From a virus: 37,959 nucleotides of DNA. The stretch lies in the IMG/VR virus record IMGVR_UViG_3300046692_000110. One strand, written 5' to 3'. Shown piece after piece: positions 5,594-12,326 of the stretch (the stretch's first letter is position 1; each line of letters begins with the position of its first letter). The notes under the pieces were generated by a model that saw only the letters and a program-made list of their open reading frames with translations, ran no database searches and was not told where the DNA came from. The position numbers were made by a program, and so were the translations under genes.

Positions 5594-6145
5594 GTGCCGA
5601 TAACCGCCCAGCAGTTACTGCAAATCCTCCCGAGCGCCGGCAAACAAGCCGGCGTTTTTGCGTCTGCACTGAATTTGGCTATGGATCGGTTCCAAATCAA
5701 CACGCGTCTGAGGATGGCGGCGTTCATCGCGCAGGTCGGCCATGAGTCTGGGCAATTCCGATATGTGAAGGAACTAGGTGGCGACCAGTACCTGAGCAAG
5801 TACGACACAGGAACGCTGGCAAAGCGGCTTGGAAACACGCTGGAGGCTGATGGGGACGGGCAGAAATATCGCGGGCGTGGCCTGATTCAGGTCACTGGGC
5901 GCGACAACTACTTGGCATGCAGCAAGGCGCTGTTCGGTGACGATCGTTTGTTGCGGACGCCGGAACTGCTCGAGCAGGCCGAGTGGGCCTGCAAATCGGC
6001 GGCGTGGTTCTGGAATTCAAGAAATCTGAACGCCTTGGCCGATTCTCAAGATTTTGTAGGAGTAACGAAGCGCATCAACGGCGGGGTCAATGGCTTGACC
6101 GAACGGCAAGCCTTTTACAGTGCAGCACTGAAAGTGCTGGCTTAG
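5594..6145 (+). CDS. Endolysin, glycoside hydrolase family 19 (chitinase class I-like)
   Basis: Motifs AAFIAQVGHESG, YRGRGLIQVTGRDNY and INGGVNGLTER are present. Confidence 0.9.
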   Translation: MPITAQQLLQILPSAGKQAGVFASALNLAMDRFQINTRLRMAAFIAQVGHESGQFRYVKELGGDQYLSKYDTGTLAKRLGNTLEADGDGQKYRGRGLIQVTGRDNYLACSKALFGDDRLLRTPELLEQAEWACKSAAWFWNSRNLNALADSQDFVGVTKRINGGVNGLTERQAFYSAALKVLA

Positions 6146-6276
6146 AAATTATGCGGCAGTGAAATGGTTCTGCGGTCTTGGCTTTGCGATTGATCAGATC
6201 GATCCGCCAAGATGCTGCCCATCACTAGTAGCACAAACCCCGCGCCGCCCCGGGGCCTCACTTATGAGTATACAAC

Positions 6277-6792
6277 ATGCCTCAAATCTGGATACGCCTC
6301 CTTCCTTATATAGCTGCGGTGCTGTTGGTGGCCGCCGCGCTGTTCGGCGTCTACCACCACGGCGTGAGTGTCACAAACGCAACATGGCAGGCGCAATGGA
6401 ACGCTCGAGACACCAGGGACGGCCTGGCCAAGGCCGAAAACGAGGCCTCCGCCCGGGCACAGGAGCAGGCCTATCAGCAATCAATCAACAAGGCGGTGCA
6501 AGATGGCCAACGACTCATCGATCAAGCAACTACTGACGCTGTTGCCGCTCGCAATTCTGCTGACAGCCTGCGCGGAGCAGCCGACAGCCTTACCGCTCGC
6601 CTCGCAGCCAGTCAAGCAAGCGGCAATTCCTGCACTGCCGCCGCAAGCAAGGCAGCTACCAGCGCCGCAATGGTGCTTGCCGACGTGCTTAAGCGCGCTG
6701 ACCAGCGAGCGGGCGACCTGGCTGAAGTTGCTGACCAAGCCAGAGCCCGCGGAGTGACATGCGAGCAGGCTTACGACGGGTTGGGGAAATAG
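6277..6792 (+). CDS. Rz: i-spanin (Rz-like)
   Basis: N-terminal transmembrane segment followed by an Ala/Gln-rich coiled coil. It follows the endolysin and contains an embedded lipoprotein ORF. Confidence 0.8.
   Translation: MPQIWIRLLPYIAAVLLVAAALFGVYHHGVSVTNATWQAQWNARDTRDGLAKAENEASARAQEQAYQQSINKAVQDGQRLIDQATTDAVAARNSADSLRGAADSLTARLAASQASGNSCTAAASKAATSAAMVLADVLKRADQRAGDLAEVADQARARGVTCEQAYDGLGK
6503..6757 (+). CDS. Rz1: o-spanin (Rz1-like lipoprotein) embedded in the +1 frame of Rz
   Basis: MANDSSIKQLLTLLPLAILLTAC carries a lipobox, followed by a Pro-rich mature part. The ORF lies entirely inside Rz. Confidence 0.75.
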   Translation: MANDSSIKQLLTLLPLAILLTACAEQPTALPLASQPVKQAAIPALPPQARQLPAPQWCLPTCLSALTSERATWLKLLTKPEPAE

Positions 6793-6907
6793 TGAATCCA
6801 CCAGAATTATTGGTTTACTCGGCGCAACGACAAATGTTACCGAAATGCCTCGGCGGTTAGCGGTTTATAGCTCGATGAGGCAGACCGACTCCCGGCAAAT
6901 TGATTGG

Positions 6908-6938
6908 TGGGGGAAATTTGGTGCAATCATTCCCCCAA
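6908..6938. promoter_or_regulatory. Putative integrase arm-type sites, left arm (TGGGGGAAAT and inverted ATTCCCCCAA)
   Basis: The same 9-10-mers recur at 7141-7183 on the other side of the tRNA-like core. Confidence 0.45.
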
Positions 6939-7021
6939 ATCATGTGGAAAGGTATTGTGTCGGTATGCGTCGAAAGTTAGGCCCTGAAGGGGGTCGCTGG
7001 AATTTCGCCCAATGATCATTT

Positions 7022-7093
7022 GGGCTGAAAACGGATTCGAAATCCGTTGTACCTTCACCGGTACCTAGGGTTCGAATCCCTATCTCTCCGCCA
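7022..7093 (+). other. attP core: 3' portion of tRNA-Ser(CGA), from the D-loop to CCA, not a complete tRNA
   Basis: Anticodon arm ACGGA-TTCGAAA-TCCGT, long variable arm GTACC/GGTAC, T-arm TAGGG-TTCGAAT-CCCTA, and 3' acceptor TCTCTCCGCCA are present. No GGAGAGA 5' acceptor lies upstream. Confidence 0.8.
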
Positions 7094-10812: not shown

Positions 10813-11532
10813 TTATGCGGCGTCAGTCGTCATCGATCGAGAGGATGGTGAATGCTGTTGCTGCCACTCTTGGGTCTTGCCCGTTGCCAATGGCGCGGTT
10901 CCGGTCCATCCGATCGGCCATCCCATGAGGTTTTCCCAAAAATCCGGGTTCACATACAGCTTCCCGATTGGCGTTCCGCGCAATTTGTTCTGACTGCCGC
11001 CGACCTCCTGGAAAGTCCCCCCCCATCTGCTTGAGCCATGGCATGGAGTCGGCCACGATCCAGCAACGGGAGCGGGTGTGGGCGGCGCCAACATGGTTTG
11101 ATCCCAGCACTCCCCATCGTGCAGAGAACCCCATGTCGGCCAGGTCTCCGAGGACTGTTCCGAGCCCTCGATGAGTGAGAGCTGACGAGTTTTCCACGAA
11201 CGCGAATCGCGGTCGTACTTCGCCAATGATCCTTGCCATTTCCCGCCATAGTCCGCTCGACTCACCCTCGATGCCGGCCTTTTGTCCTGCCTGGGAAATG
11301 TCGGTGCAGGGGAAGCCGCCAGAAACAACGTCAACAGTTCCGCTCCAGGGGCGTCCGTCAAAGGTACAAACATCATCCCAAATGGGGAATGGTGGAAGGT
11401 GTCCTTCATTTTGGCGCTGCATGAGTCTCCTGGAGCAGAAGGAATTGATTTCCACTGCGCAGACTGTTCGCCATCCAAGGAGCTTTCCAGCAAGTATCCC
11501 GCCACCAGCGCCTGCGAAAAGTGCCAGCTCAT
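10813..11532 (-). CDS. Full-length overlapping ORF in the +1 frame of the methyltransferase (frame B, 239 aa), coding status unresolved
   Basis: No stop for 239 codons. It contains SWKTRQLSL, ETWPTWGSLHDGECW, WPTP and NPDFWENLMGWPIGWT. Confidence 0.35.
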   Translation of the reverse strand: MSWHFSQALVAGYLLESSLDGEQSAQWKSIPSAPGDSCSAKMKDTFHHSPFGMMFVPLTDAPGAELLTLFLAASPAPTFPRQDKRPASRVSRADYGGKWQGSLAKYDRDSRSWKTRQLSLIEGSEQSSETWPTWGSLHDGECWDQTMLAPPTPAPVAGSWPTPCHGSSRWGGTFQEVGGSQNKLRGTPIGKLYVNPDFWENLMGWPIGWTGTAPLATGKTQEWQQQHSPSSRSMTTDAA

Positions 11533-11536
11533 TCAT
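10823..11536 (-). CDS. DNA (cytosine-5)-methyltransferase, compact phage type (frame A)
   Basis: Ordered motifs are FAGAGGG (I), GFPCTDIS (IV), FVENS (VI), AAHTRSRCWIVA (VIII) and EPGFLGKPHGMADRMDRNRAIGNGQDP (IX/X). Confidence 0.85.
   Translation of the reverse strand: MNELALFAGAGGGILAGKLLGWRTVCAVEINSFCSRRLMQRQNEGHLPPFPIWDDVCTFDGRPWSGTVDVVSGGFPCTDISQAGQKAGIEGESSGLWREMARIIGEVRPRFAFVENSSALTHRGLGTVLGDLADMGFSARWGVLGSNHVGAAHTRSRCWIVADSMPWLKQMGGDFPGGRRQSEQIARNANREAVCEPGFLGKPHGMADRMDRNRAIGNGQDPRVAATAFTILSIDDD
11017..11024 (-). repeat. G8 homopolymer (C8 on the + strand) inside the methyltransferase locus
   Basis: Counted directly: gtCCCCCCCCatc. It lies between motif VIII and the C-terminal motifs of both frames. 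Confidence 0.9.
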
Positions 11537-11667
11537 TGGAACTCCTGCGTTGGTAAGTTTTGGTCATCGCGCCGTTGACCGTGTTGCCGCGCTTCAGCAC
11601 GACATTGGCCAGCTTCTCGCGGTCTTTCTCGCTGTGGCTGGCCTGACTGAGCAGGCCGAAGTAGCTG

Positions 11668-12114
11668 TTAGGCAGCCTTCTTCGGCTTTGGGCTGGCTTT
11701 GAGCGGAGTGGTCAACGCCTTCTCGACGCTCCAGCCAAGCCGCAGGCGCATGCTCAGTGCGTTGGCGGTCATGCCCACCTCTGCCGCCCAGTCCGCTACG
11801 TTTTTCGTGATGCCGCCATGCTCAAGCATCACGCAGTGTGTACGGTTCTTGTTCTGCGCGGCCTGGGTAACCCATCGGCAATTGCCGGGCTCGTAGCCTT
11901 TGGCGTTCTCGATGCGGTCCAGGGTCATAGCGCGATCAGGGCATTCCCCCATGTCGTCCCGGAAGTTTGCGAAGTAATGCCAGCGCTCACAGACCTTTAC
12001 GCCGAGCGCGCCGTAATACTTGTAGTTGCCGCAGGTGGGCGTATTGCAGCGCTGCATCATCGACTTCCAGCGGGCATAAGTCAGCGTGCCGCAGCCGCCA
12101 TGTTTGATTCGCAT
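11668..12114 (-). CDS. HNH/AP2-like homing-endonuclease-type protein
   Basis: YARWKSMMQRC...YYGALGVKVCERW..F.NF..DMG..P....TLDRIENAKGYEPGNCRWVTQAAQNKN is the typical stand-alone phage HNH pattern. GGAGAA precedes the ATG at 12114. Confidence 0.7.
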   Translation of the reverse strand: MRIKHGGCGTLTYARWKSMMQRCNTPTCGNYKYYGALGVKVCERWHYFANFRDDMGECPDRAMTLDRIENAKGYEPGNCRWVTQAAQNKNRTHCVMLEHGGITKNVADWAAEVGMTANALSMRLRLGWSVEKALTTPLKASPKPKKAA

Positions 12115-12326
12115 GTCGTTCTCCAATGCAGCAAGATCAGGTGTGGGCTCTTGTCCCGAGTCGAGTTAGCCCGGGCAATCAACATCAGCACGTCGATGCA
12201 CTCATCAATAACGCGCTTCCCGAGAGACTGCTTGAGATCTCGGGGAATGTTGCGGGTGAGATTCGTGGCCATCTGTAGCAGGCCGAGCGAACTTTTGTAG
12301 ATACTCAAATCCGTGTGCATTGACAT
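12081..12326 (-). pseudogene. Avd-like four-helix-bundle protein (DGR accessory type), apparently truncated after about 65 aa
   Basis: DLSIYKSSLGLLQMATNLTRNIPRDLKQSLGKRVIDECIDVLMLIARANSTRDKS fits the Avd / 23S-IVS four-helix-bundle pattern (IY.k...l, iPk..k..LG.ri, l.li..AN). The tail runs into the HNH gene and loses the pattern. Confidence 0.55.

What the first reader, a model, noticed from the sequence alone, without database searches (positions are those of the whole stretch)
10813..11536. Two full-length same-strand overlapping frames in the methyltransferase locus, both with recognisable protein motifs
Frame A (237 aa) is a complete compact C5-MTase with motifs I, IV, VI, VIII and IX/X in order.

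Frame B is offset by one base. It is open for 239 codons over the same nucleotides and does not look like noise. It contains MSWHFSQAL, SPAPTFP, SWKTRQLSL, ETWPTWGSLHDGECW, WPTP and NPDFWENLMGWPIGWT...LATGKTQEWQQQHS. I recognise these strings from phage MTase-associated proteins with WPTP repeats.

The frame-B string NPDFWENLMGWPIGWT is encoded by exactly the bases that encode frame A's EPGFLGKPHGMADRMD (checked by hand translation of 10921-10960).

Third-position G+C is not clearly higher in frame A than in frame B over the first 40 codons.

There are two readings. This may be a genuinely dual-coding (overprinted) gene. Alternatively, the frame-B family in my memory may itself consist of alternative-frame translations of MTase genes. 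Either outcome would be worth knowing.
Basis: partly seen in the sequence, partly recalled or inferred. Interest (0 to 1): 0.8.

Follow-up and report, generated by a model that had tools for sequence, protein, structure and literature searches.

The report
Two-frame phage cytosine methyltransferase gene
One 0.7-kb phage gene is read in two overlapping frames that each carry different essential pieces of a single DNA cytosine methyltransferase; this split has a 1995 precedent but is far more widespread than annotation shows, because only one frame is usually annotated.

Summary
On the minus strand, frame A (10823-11536, 237 aa) and frame B (10813-11532, 239 aa, +1) overlap completely.

Frame B is not noise. 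In 76 homologues found through frame A alone (G+C 46-64%), the +1 frame has about 0 internal stops. Synonymous shuffles give 5.2, and the +2 frame has 14. B's ATG, 4 nt after A's start, is present in 150 of 153 loci.

Codon-position variability shows which frame is selected where:
- A over motifs I-VIII (codons 1-160).
- B over the variable WPTP region and NPxFWExLMGWPxGWT (codons 161-210).
- A again over motif X.
- Both frames over A codons ~106-160.

AlphaFold gives frame A a confident catalytic domain and motif-X helix, joined by an unconfident 169-215 linker. Frame A is therefore not a complete enzyme.

Best explanation: a two-subunit C5-methyltransferase, with alpha as the catalytic core and beta as the recognition region plus a motif-IX-like segment. 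M.EcoHK31I is the precedent, because its beta chain lies in another frame of the alpha gene. New here are the end-to-end overlap, the twin starts, the variable region lying in beta, and the scale (over 5,000 protein clusters).

Translation and assembly are inferred. B's motif-IX identity rests on pattern only.

The parts
10823..11536 (-). Frame A ORF (alpha): 237 aa. It holds the C5-methyltransferase catalytic core and the motif X helix.
   Evidence: ORF. PF00145 E=3.5e-25 over residues 4-162. Matches M.HaeIII and M.HhaI by sequence and by fold (Foldseek E=1e-14). AlphaFold pLDDT is above 90 for residues 1-160 and 221-233.
10813..11532 (-). Frame B ORF (beta): 239 aa, +1 relative to A.
   Evidence: ORF. 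955 full-length homologues without a Pfam domain. Kept open in 76 A-ascertained loci: 0.74 stops observed against 5.2 expected.
11530..11536 (-). Twin start ATGAATG. A's ATG is 11534-11536 and B's ATG is 11530-11532.
   Evidence: Across 153 loci, B's start is ATG in 150, GTG in 2 and ATA in 1. A's start is ATG in 103, GTG in 28, TTG in 15 and lies upstream in 7. The AAT Asn codon is invariant.
11542..11546 (-). Shine-Dalgarno-like AGGAG, 5 nt before A's ATG and 9 nt before B's ATG.
   Evidence: Sequence. In 124 of 153 loci an SD-like core lies mostly 4-5 nt before the A start, which is 8-9 nt before the B start.
11057..11536 (-). A codons 1-160, where selection acts on frame A. Motif I LFAGAGGG 11498-11521; IV GGFPCTDIS 11294-11320; VI FVENS 11186-11200; VIII HTRSRCWIV 11054-11080.
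   Evidence: The most variable codon position is A's third position.
11224..11532 (-). Frame B leader (B residues 1-103). It is kept stop-free but is otherwise weakly constrained, apart from the N-terminus MSW[HL][FY]SQAL.
   Evidence: B identity is 0.33-0.39 against 0.30-0.34 expected as a by-product of A. pLDDT is 39-63. In Stenotrophomonas phage S72, Mycobacterium phage Hades and Bacteroides phage BS162P3 the frame-B ORF is shorter and starts inside the frame-A ORF.
11057..11221 (-). Doubly constrained zone. A motifs VI-VIII overlap B's SWKTRQLSL...ETWPTWGSLHDGECW.
   Evidence: Invariant fourfold-degenerate sites in A: V114 GTG 66/66 (B Trp), A133 GCC 69/69 (B Pro), G136 GGG 75/76, and also codons 118, 142 and 143. 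B identity is 0.47 against 0.34 expected.
10903..11055 (-). B residues 160-210, where selection acts on frame B. This is the WPTP variable (target-recognition-like) region plus the motif-IX-like NPDFWENLMGWPIGWT (10903-10950). In frame A the same bases are an unconstrained linker.
   Evidence: In 16 close relatives the entropy at B position 3 / B1 / B2 per 10-codon block is 0.75/0.10/0.20, 1.07/0.05/0.00, 0.85/0.30/0.28 and 0.44/0.13/0.00. B pLDDT is 75-85 for residues 171-210. A pLDDT is 29-49 there. A is still kept open across this region: 1 stop observed against 82 expected in 45 loci.
10838..10906 (-). A codons 211-233, where selection returns to frame A. Motif X is AIGNGQDPRVAATAF (10850-10894). 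B's tail PLxTxKxxxW overlaps it.
   Evidence: A's third position is again the most variable, and G217, N218 and Q220 are invariant. pLDDT is about 90 for 221-233. The B tail shows excess conservation, 0.46 against 0.35.

Best explanation
The locus is a genuinely dual-coding gene for a two-subunit DNA cytosine-5 methyltransferase.

Ribosomes start at either of two start codons 4 nt apart, behind one Shine-Dalgarno site.
- Frame A gives alpha: the AdoMet-binding and catalytic large domain (motifs I, IV, VI, VIII), then a passenger linker, then the motif X helix.
- Frame B gives beta: a ~100-residue passenger leader, then a ~105-130-residue C-terminal domain. That domain holds the variable recognition region (SWKT...WPxWG...GECW, WPTP repeats) and a motif-IX-like NPxFWExLMGWPxGWT.

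Alpha and beta assemble into the active enzyme, as shown experimentally for M.EcoHK31I. Exchange or expansion of the frame-B variable region would change sequence specificity without touching the catalytic core.

Shown here: conservation of both ORFs, the map of which frame is selected where, conservation of both start codons, and the fold of alpha.

Inferred: translation of beta, heterodimer formation, equivalence of B's motif to motif IX, and the role in target recognition.
For: 1. In 80 viral loci found through frame A only (48-90% identity, G+C 0.46-0.64), the +1 frame is open from ATGAATGAG to within a few codons of A's stop. The +2 frame has 6-26 stops. In the 76 of these loci that begin with the [ATG]T[GA]AATGA[AG] twin-start pattern, 0.74 stops are observed, against 5.2 after synonymous shuffling and 8.0 after codon-order shuffling.
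2. The reverse also holds. Frame A is kept open across the B-coded variable region, including inserts of about 100 codons: 1 stop observed against 82 expected.
3. The selected frame switches A, then B, then A, at codons ~160 and ~211. This is the canonical order I-VIII, variable region, IX, X.
4. Invariant synonymous sites in A preserve B's Trp, Pro and Gly.
5. B's ATG is present in 150 of 153 loci, with the better SD spacing. A's start is often GTG or TTG. The twin start is retained even where the N-terminus is extended.
6. AlphaFold of A gives a confident core and motif X helix, and an unconfident 169-215. The core matches M.HaeIII and M.HhaI.
7. A's linker in long homologues is low-complexity R/G/E/Q sequence.
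8. The B C-terminal domain has 5,170 cluster representatives at E<=1e-3; in most of the 150 best hits listed it starts at residue 104. It occurs in phages of Pseudomonas, Salmonella, Vibrio, Microcystis, Mycobacterium and Bacteroides and in genomes of many phyla.
9. Precedent: M.EcoHK31I needs alpha (I-VIII, X) plus beta (motif IX), with beta encoded entirely in another frame of the alpha gene (PMC2836561, PMC3404938).
Against: - No direct evidence that beta is translated or binds alpha.
- B's motif-IX identity is pattern-level only (P-x5-L-M-G-W-P against the canonical P-x5-L-Q-G-F-P of phage 5093's enzyme).
- Artificial A-B-A hybrids do not extend the PF00145 or TIGR00675 match.
- The B profile finds no C5-MTase in the PDB. 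hhalign against one canonical enzyme is null. None of 55 B members hits any Pfam family.
- AlphaFold of B alone is poor (mean pLDDT 56) and Foldseek finds nothing.
- Why a ~100-residue leader is tolerated is unexplained.
- A canonical single-chain streptococcal phage enzyme also keeps a 144-codon +1 ORF, which this model does not explain.
Confidence: 0.7

Rival explanations
1. A single polypeptide is made by two programmed ribosomal frameshifts: +1 near codon 160 and -1 near codon 211. The result is a canonical A-B-A methyltransferase.
For: The selection map A-B-A reproduces the canonical motif order in one chain.
Against: - Frameshifting would not require frame B to be open over codons 1-160, nor frame A to be open across the variable region. 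Both are kept open.
- B has its own near-universal ATG.
- No conserved slippery site: nucleotides around codons 160-166 are highly variable.
- No X_XXY_YYZ heptamer near 10900-10915.
- No Rfam element.
- In three phages the frame-B ORF is shorter and opens inside the frame-A ORF, with a methionine near its start, well upstream of the frame-switch junction.
Confidence: 0.07
2. Frame B is translated, but it encodes a protein with a function of its own (for example a regulator or an anti-restriction factor). Frame A alone is the working methyltransferase, using a minimal linker in place of a recognition domain.
For: - B has no detectable homology to any Pfam or PDB family.
- A canonical single-chain enzyme in phage 5093 also keeps a long +1 ORF.
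- B's N-terminal MSWxxSxAL is conserved even where A's N-terminus differs.
Against: - A's region between motifs VIII and X is unconstrained, low-complexity and has pLDDT below 50. Alpha therefore has no conserved DNA-recognition element and no motif IX.
- B's most conserved segment has the motif IX spacing and sits exactly where motif IX belongs, just before A's motif X.
- M.EcoHK31I is a precedent for the complementing arrangement.
Confidence: 0.15
3. Frame B is a non-functional shadow ORF: a by-product of frame A's composition and G+C content, or of sequencing frameshifts. The database 'family' is then a gene-calling artefact.
For: - B's leader is conserved about as much as expected from A alone.
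- Every B family member lies inside a methyltransferase gene.
- Chimeric A-to-B proteins from indels exist.
Against: - Shuffles that keep A's protein and codon usage give 5.2 stops against about 0 internal stops observed, down to 46% G+C.
- The wobble position switches to frame B for 50 codons.
- Fourfold-degenerate sites in A are invariant.
- The B ATG is invariant.
- The pattern recurs on hundreds of independent contigs and in cultured phages.
Confidence: 0.03

Closest known systems
M.EcoHK31I (and its isoschizomer M.EaeI, from my own knowledge): a heterodimeric C5-methyltransferase (Lee, Kam & Shaw 1995; described in PMC2836561 and PMC3404938)
   Same: The alpha chain carries motifs I-VIII and X. 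The beta chain carries motif IX and is encoded entirely within another reading frame of the alpha gene. Both are needed for activity. The N-terminal part of beta is dispensable, which parallels the weakly constrained B leader here.
   Different: - In M.EcoHK31I, beta (176 aa) is embedded in alpha (309 aa), and the predicted recognition domain was assigned to alpha.
- Here beta spans the whole gene (239 against 237 aa) and starts 4 nt after alpha behind the same SD.
- Here the constrained variable region lies in the beta frame.
- This one is a phage or prophage gene; no restriction-enzyme partner was identified among the four neighbouring ORFs I examined.
- Sequence homology to M.EcoHK31I could not be tested, because the sequence is not held.
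M.AquI alpha/beta (Karreman & de Waard 1990; described in PMC3404938)
   Same: A natural two-polypeptide C5-methyltransferase, split within the variable region.
   Different: M.AquI beta carries motifs IX and X. Here motif X is in the alpha frame and the overlap is complete.
'Totally overlapping' C5-MTase ORFs noted in Streptococcus thermophilus 5093-group phages, S. pneumoniae phage MM1 and Tn5252 (PMC5601072, Methyltransferases section)
   Same: Two ORFs in different frames over the same methyltransferase DNA in phages. In phage 5093 the +1 ORF reads SLKTSKDSL...RWMNSGMMWNGKC, the same pattern as B's SWKTRQLSL...TWPTWGSLHDGECW.
   Different: - The 5093 enzyme is only 27% identical to frame A.
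- It is canonical, with motifs IX and X in frame.
- Its +1 ORF is 141 aa and embedded.
- Similarity to frame B is not significant.
- That paper gives no mechanism.
Classical phage overprinted genes (lambda Rz/Rz1; phiX174 D/E) - own knowledge
   Same: A same-strand gene lying wholly within another gene in a different frame.
   Different: Those pairs encode distinct proteins, with the second gene usually short. Here the two frames encode complementary parts of one enzyme over about 720 nt.

Membership tests
DNA cytosine-5 methyltransferase (PF00145), frame A | Motif I (FxGxG, AdoMet binding) | tested here: met
   LFAGAGGG, residues 6-13. Aligned to M.HaeIII and M.HhaI. PF00145 E=3.5e-25.
DNA cytosine-5 methyltransferase (PF00145), frame A | Motif IV (catalytic PC), motif VI (ENV), motif VIII (QxRxR) | tested here: met
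   GGFPCTDIS 73-81, FVENS 113-117 and HTRSRCWIV 153-161, in register with M.HaeIII. F75, P76, C77, E115, N116, R155 and R157 are invariant in 63 homologues.
DNA cytosine-5 methyltransferase (PF00145), frame A | Target recognition domain and motif IX in the same chain, between motifs VIII and X | tested here: not met
   Pfam, TIGR and PDB matches end at ~162-179. A residues 163-210 are hypervariable, or selected in the other frame. pLDDT is below 50 for 169-215.
DNA cytosine-5 methyltransferase (PF00145), frame A | Motif X (GNxxxP helix packing on the large domain) | tested here: met
   AIGNGQDPRVAATAF, residues 215-229. G219 and Q220 are invariant in 63 homologues; G217 and N218 are also invariant in the 76-locus codon alignment. 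Selected in frame A. Helix 222-233 has pLDDT ~90. Not matched by the Pfam profile.
M.EcoHK31I-type two-polypeptide C5-MTase | Beta chain encoded in an alternative reading frame inside the alpha gene | tested here: met
   Frame B is +1 and conserved family-wide. It is full-length here. In phages S72, Hades and BS162P3 it is shorter and starts inside the frame-A ORF.
M.EcoHK31I-type two-polypeptide C5-MTase | Alpha has motifs I-VIII and X; beta supplies motif IX | tested here: inconclusive
   The alpha part is met (see above). B's NPxFWExLMGWPxGWT has the motif IX spacing, lies just before A's motif X and is selected in frame B. Profile tests are null.
M.EcoHK31I-type two-polypeptide C5-MTase | Recognition domain resides in alpha | tested here: not met
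   The constrained variable region is in frame B. A's counterpart is low-complexity sequence.
M.EcoHK31I-type two-polypeptide C5-MTase | Both polypeptides are required for methylation, and they associate | not testable with these tools
   Needs expression and methylation assays, or a multimer structure prediction.
M.EcoHK31I-type two-polypeptide C5-MTase | Sequence homology to M.EcoHK31I alpha and beta | not tested
Lee 1995 is not held and there is no supplement.
Programmed ribosomal frameshift gene | Conserved slippery site at the frame junction; second frame lacks its own start and need not be open upstream | tested here: not met
   The junction nucleotides are variable. B has its own ATG in 150 of 153 loci. 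Both frames are open end to end. No Rfam hit.

The most novel reading that the evidence does not exclude
Fully overprinted alpha/beta genes may be the predominant form of the compact 'Dcm-like' methyltransferases of phages and prophages.
- Beta would act as an exchangeable specificity subunit, analogous to HsdS of Type I restriction-modification systems. It would be translated from a twin start codon that fixes the alpha:beta ratio.
- Thousands of annotated 230-350-aa phage C5-methyltransferases would then be incomplete without an unannotated partner.
- The +1 ORF over motifs IV-VIII that persists even in a canonical streptococcal phage enzyme hints that the overlap is ancient. It may also carry a further function beyond supplying the variable region and motif IX.
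Probability: 0.4. Interest if true: 0.8.

Novelty: new variant of a known kind. Interest (0 to 1): 0.66.

Why it matters
Overlapping genes. This would be one of the longest and best-supported same-strand complete gene overlaps in prokaryotic viruses: about 720 nt, with both frames kept open across hundreds of divergent loci. The map of which frame is under selection where is clean, which makes it a natural test case for models of how overlapping genes evolve.

Annotation. Gene callers pick one frame or the other. Frame B is then filed as a 'hypothetical protein', with over 5,000 clusters at 50% identity. Alternatively, the methyltransferase is missed altogether, as in Pseudomonas phage VB_PaD_phPA-G.

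Enzymology. Expressing only the annotated frame-A ORF of such enzymes is predicted to give inactive or non-specific protein. This matters for methylome interpretation, for REBASE-style specificity assignment and for phage engineering.

Engineering. A natural catalytic-plus-specificity split for C5-methyltransferases is also of interest for building targeted methyltransferases, which is the use M.EcoHK31I was put to.

Tried and rejected
- Artificial A-B-A hybrids against Pfam and NCBIfam. The match did not extend into motifs IX and X.
- Frame B, and a 55-sequence B profile, against PDB sequences. No methyltransferase was found.
- hhalign of the B profile against the canonical phage 5093 enzyme. 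Null.
- Pfam scan of all 55 B members. Nothing.
- AlphaFold of B alone gave mean pLDDT 56. Foldseek on that model was meaningless.
- Search for natural single-frame fusions of the B domain with an A core. The 10 unusually long or short proteins among the 150 listed hits that I checked have no PF00145. A hybrid query to the large database scored only 3 candidates, none of them a fusion. The A-to-B chimeras P0071, P0072 and P0241 switch frame at different points and lose catalytic motifs, so I treat them as indel products.
- The antisense ORF at 11175..11702 is not conserved.
- The Lee 1995 paper and the supplement of PMC2836561 are not held, so the M.EcoHK31I sequence could not be compared.
- Literature searches found no description of this family's architecture beyond the streptococcal remark in PMC5601072. 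The library holds only open-access papers.
Full report
**Observation**

On the minus strand of the window there are two ORFs over the same DNA. Frame A is 10823..11536 (237 aa). Frame B is 10813..11532 (239 aa).

B is shifted +1. The gene begins ATGAATGAG, with A's ATG at 11534-11536 and B's ATG at 11530-11532. An AGGAG lies 5 nt before A's start and 9 nt before B's.

The remark on third-position G+C is correct: over A codons 1-110, G+C is 0.53 at A's third position and 0.62 at B's.

The window is a 37,959-bp JGI contig. JGI called frame A on it (P0128). Logan called frame B on an identical sequence (P0001).

**What each frame matches**

Frame A:
- It matches PF00145 only over residues 4-162.
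- It aligns with M.HaeIII and M.HhaI over motifs I-VIII.
- It has at least 8,000 full-length homologues, and those that carry a source name are annotated as cytosine methyltransferases.

Frame B:
- It has no Pfam, NCBIfam or PDB match.
- It has 955 homologues. Most of the 120 best listed are full length (230-360 aa) with no Pfam domain. The ones I read begin MSWHFSQAL and end LNPxWxEWLMGWPxGWT...PLETxKF.
- Its C-terminal 136 residues find 5,170 representatives of 50%-identity clusters. In most of the 150 best hits listed the match starts at residue 104, which means full-length B-type ORFs.

**Is frame B maintained?**

I fetched 80 viral loci using frame A only, so there was no selection for frame B. 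They are 48-90% identical to A and range from 0.46 to 0.64 G+C.
- In essentially all of them the +1 frame runs from an ATG at +4 to within a few codons of A's stop. The +2 frame has 6-26 stops.
- In the 76 of these loci that begin with the [ATG]T[GA]AATGA[AG] twin-start pattern, stops in the +1 frame inside A average 0.74, and most of these are B's own terminator. Shuffling synonymous codons within each gene (same protein, same codon usage) gives 5.2. Shuffling codon order gives 8.0.
- Antisense frames carry 4-8 stops.

The reverse also holds. Across the B-coded variable region, which reaches 113 codons in some homologues, frame A has 1 stop in 45 loci. B-synonymous shuffles give 82.

In 80 bacterial-genome loci found through frame B, from many phyla, 64 have A and B ORFs within 15 codons of each other, spanning 224-385 codons. 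63 show all five frame-A motif patterns I searched for (motifs I, IV, VI, VIII and X).

**Which frame is selected where**

I built a codon alignment of the 76 loci and measured entropy at each codon position.
- A codons 1-162: A's third position is the most variable, which is ordinary frame-A coding.
- Codons 163-195: all positions are hypervariable.
- Codons 196-211: the most variable position is A's first, which is B's third. B's first and second positions are near-invariant. Examples are codon 201 (1.47/0.10/0.10) and codon 204 (1.55/0/0).
- Codons 217-232: A's third position is again the most variable.

I repeated this on 16 close relatives that share the window's type of variable region, aligned without gaps. 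Blocks 161-200 give 0.75/0.10/0.20, 1.07/0.05/0.00, 0.85/0.30/0.28 and 0.44/0.13/0.00 (order: B3/B1/B2). This is clean frame-B coding for WPTPCHGSSRWGGTFQEVGGSQNKLRGTPIGKLYVNPDFW.

Fourfold-degenerate sites in A are frozen wherever B has a conserved residue:
- V114 is GTG in 66 of 66 (B's Trp in SWKT).
- A133 is GCC in 69 of 69 (B's Pro in TWP).
- G136 is GGG in 75 of 76.
- Codons 118, 142 and 143 are also strongly biased.

A codons ~106-160 (motifs VI-VIII) are therefore constrained in both frames. B identity between distant pairs there is 0.47, against 0.34 expected as a by-product of A. In the B leader (A codons 16-105) it is 0.33-0.39 against 0.30-0.34.

**Starts**

Across 153 loci, B's start is ATG in 150, GTG in 2 and ATA in 1. 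A's start is ATG in 103, GTG in 28, TTG in 15 and lies further upstream in 7. An SD-like core usually sits 4-5 nt before A's start, which is 8-9 nt before B's. Loci with an N-terminal extension carry the twin start on the extension.

**Structure**

AlphaFold of A, with 63 homologues, gives pLDDT above 90 for residues 1-160 and about 90 for helix 222-233, but 29-49 for 169-215. The core matches M.HaeIII and M.HhaI (Foldseek E=1e-14).

A's linker in longer homologues is low-complexity R/G/E/Q sequence.

AlphaFold of B alone is poor (mean pLDDT 56). Only residues 171-210 reach 75-85, and the leader scores 39-63. This fits a subunit that needs a partner, but it proves nothing.

**Interpretation**

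The selected sequence reads as follows: A motifs I-VIII; then B's variable region and NPxFWExLMGWPxGWT; then A's motif X. This is the canonical order of a C5-methyltransferase, distributed over two frames.

Both frames are kept open from end to end, and B has its own near-universal ATG. The simplest mechanism is therefore two polypeptides that assemble.

This has an experimental precedent. [quoted passage not shown] The N-terminal 42 residues of beta are dispensable in vitro (PMC2836561; PMC3404938). M.AquI, and fragment complementation of monomeric enzymes, show that the fold tolerates splitting (PMC3404938).

Shorter frame-B ORFs that start inside the frame-A ORF occur in Stenotrophomonas phage S72, Mycobacterium phage Hades gp69 and Bacteroides phage BS162P3. 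The window's full-length overlap is therefore one variant within a broad alpha/beta family.

**Limits**

- B's equivalence to motif IX rests on pattern and position only. B reads P-x5-L-M-G-W-P-x2-W; phage 5093's in-frame motif reads P-x5-L-Q-G-F-P-x-W.
- All profile tests were null: hybrids against Pfam and NCBIfam, the B profile against the PDB, hhalign, and a Pfam scan of B members.
- Translation of B and its association with alpha are inferred.
- No natural single-frame fusion was found.

**Rivals**

- Double programmed frameshifting fits the A-B-A map. It does not explain why both frames are open end to end, nor B's own start, and there is no conserved slippery site or Rfam element.
- A shadow ORF is excluded.
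- An independent function for B cannot be excluded.
- One oddity points that way. The canonical single-chain methyltransferase of Streptococcus phage 5093 is 27% identical to A, has 40% G+C and has motifs IX and X in frame. It still keeps a 144-codon +1 ORF over motifs IV-VIII. Only 0.05% of synonymous shuffles reach that length.
- McDonnell et al. (PMC5601072) remarked on 'total overlap' of C5-MTase ORFs in these phages, in phage MM1 and in Tn5252, without giving a mechanism.

**Context and annotation**

An HNH endonuclease gene lies directly upstream, at 11668..12126. No restriction-enzyme partner was identified among the four neighbouring ORFs I examined.

Cultured phages carry the same architecture, with only one frame annotated. 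Salmonella phage S9-5 annotates A only. Pseudomonas phage VB_PaD_phPA-G annotates B only, as 'hypothetical protein'.

**Verdict**

The dual-coding reading is strongly supported by comparative evidence. The most likely mechanism is an M.EcoHK31I-like alpha/beta enzyme. This is a new variant of a known kind, marked by complete overlap, twin starts and a variable region encoded in beta. It is widespread and systematically mis-annotated.

Noticed in passing
L247 (Streptococcus phage 5093, NC_012753) 6067-7026 and 6218-6643: A canonical single-chain C5-methyltransferase (motifs IX and X in frame, 40% G+C) keeps a 144-codon +1 ORF over motifs IV-VIII. Only 0.05% of synonymous shuffles reach that length. 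The ORF reads SLKTSKDSL...RWMNSGMMWNGKC...LLDILEENVDEKFFLS. The 'beta supplies the variable region and motif IX' model does not explain it. PMC5601072 mentions 'total overlap' of such ORFs in 5093-group phages, phage MM1 and Tn5252.
   Followed up: partly
window 10813-11536; L164 1501-2229; L161 1488-2222: Gene callers disagree on which frame to report. On the window's own sequence, JGI called A (199 aa) and Logan called B. Pseudomonas phage VB_PaD_phPA-G annotates only B, as 'hypothetical protein', and so misses the methyltransferase. Salmonella phage S9-5 annotates only A.
   Followed up: yes
L162 (Stenotrophomonas phage S72), L163 (Mycobacterium phage Hades gp69), L165 (Bacteroides phage BS162P3): In these phages the beta-like +1 ORF is shorter (177-205 open codons) and begins inside the alpha ORF, as described for M.EcoHK31I, rather than spanning the whole gene. 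The Bacteroides one ends before alpha's motif X.
   Followed up: partly
P0071, P0072, P0241 (database proteins): These are natural chimeras that start in frame A and continue in frame B, switching at three different points and losing catalytic motifs. Because both frames are open, any indel produces a long hybrid ORF that looks like a gene.
   Followed up: partly
L089 and L168 (Pseudomonas nitroreducens TX1 chromosome): The start region reads ATGAATAAG, so beta's ATG is replaced by ATA. Frame B nevertheless stays open for 241 codons. This may be a recent loss, a non-canonical start or a sequencing error.
   Followed up: no
window 11175-11702 (+): A 175-aa antisense ORF lies opposite the methyltransferase gene. 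Antisense frames carry 4-8 stops on average in 76 homologues, so this ORF is not conserved.
   Followed up: yes
window 11668-12126 (-): An HNH endonuclease gene (phrog_3377, E=1.6e-47) sits directly upstream of the methyltransferase. A similar HNH-methylase neighbourhood is seen in Mycobacterium phage Hades (gp66 and gp69).
   Followed up: no
P0242 (RefSeq 'MULTISPECIES: hypothetical protein [unclassified Pseudomonas]', 124 aa): Its C-terminal 60 residues are the B-frame motif region (WGGTFQEVGGSKNKLRGTPIGKLYVNPDFWESLMGWPIGWT...), fused to an unrelated N-terminus. This suggests a recombined or truncated copy of the locus in Pseudomonas genomes.
   Followed up: no
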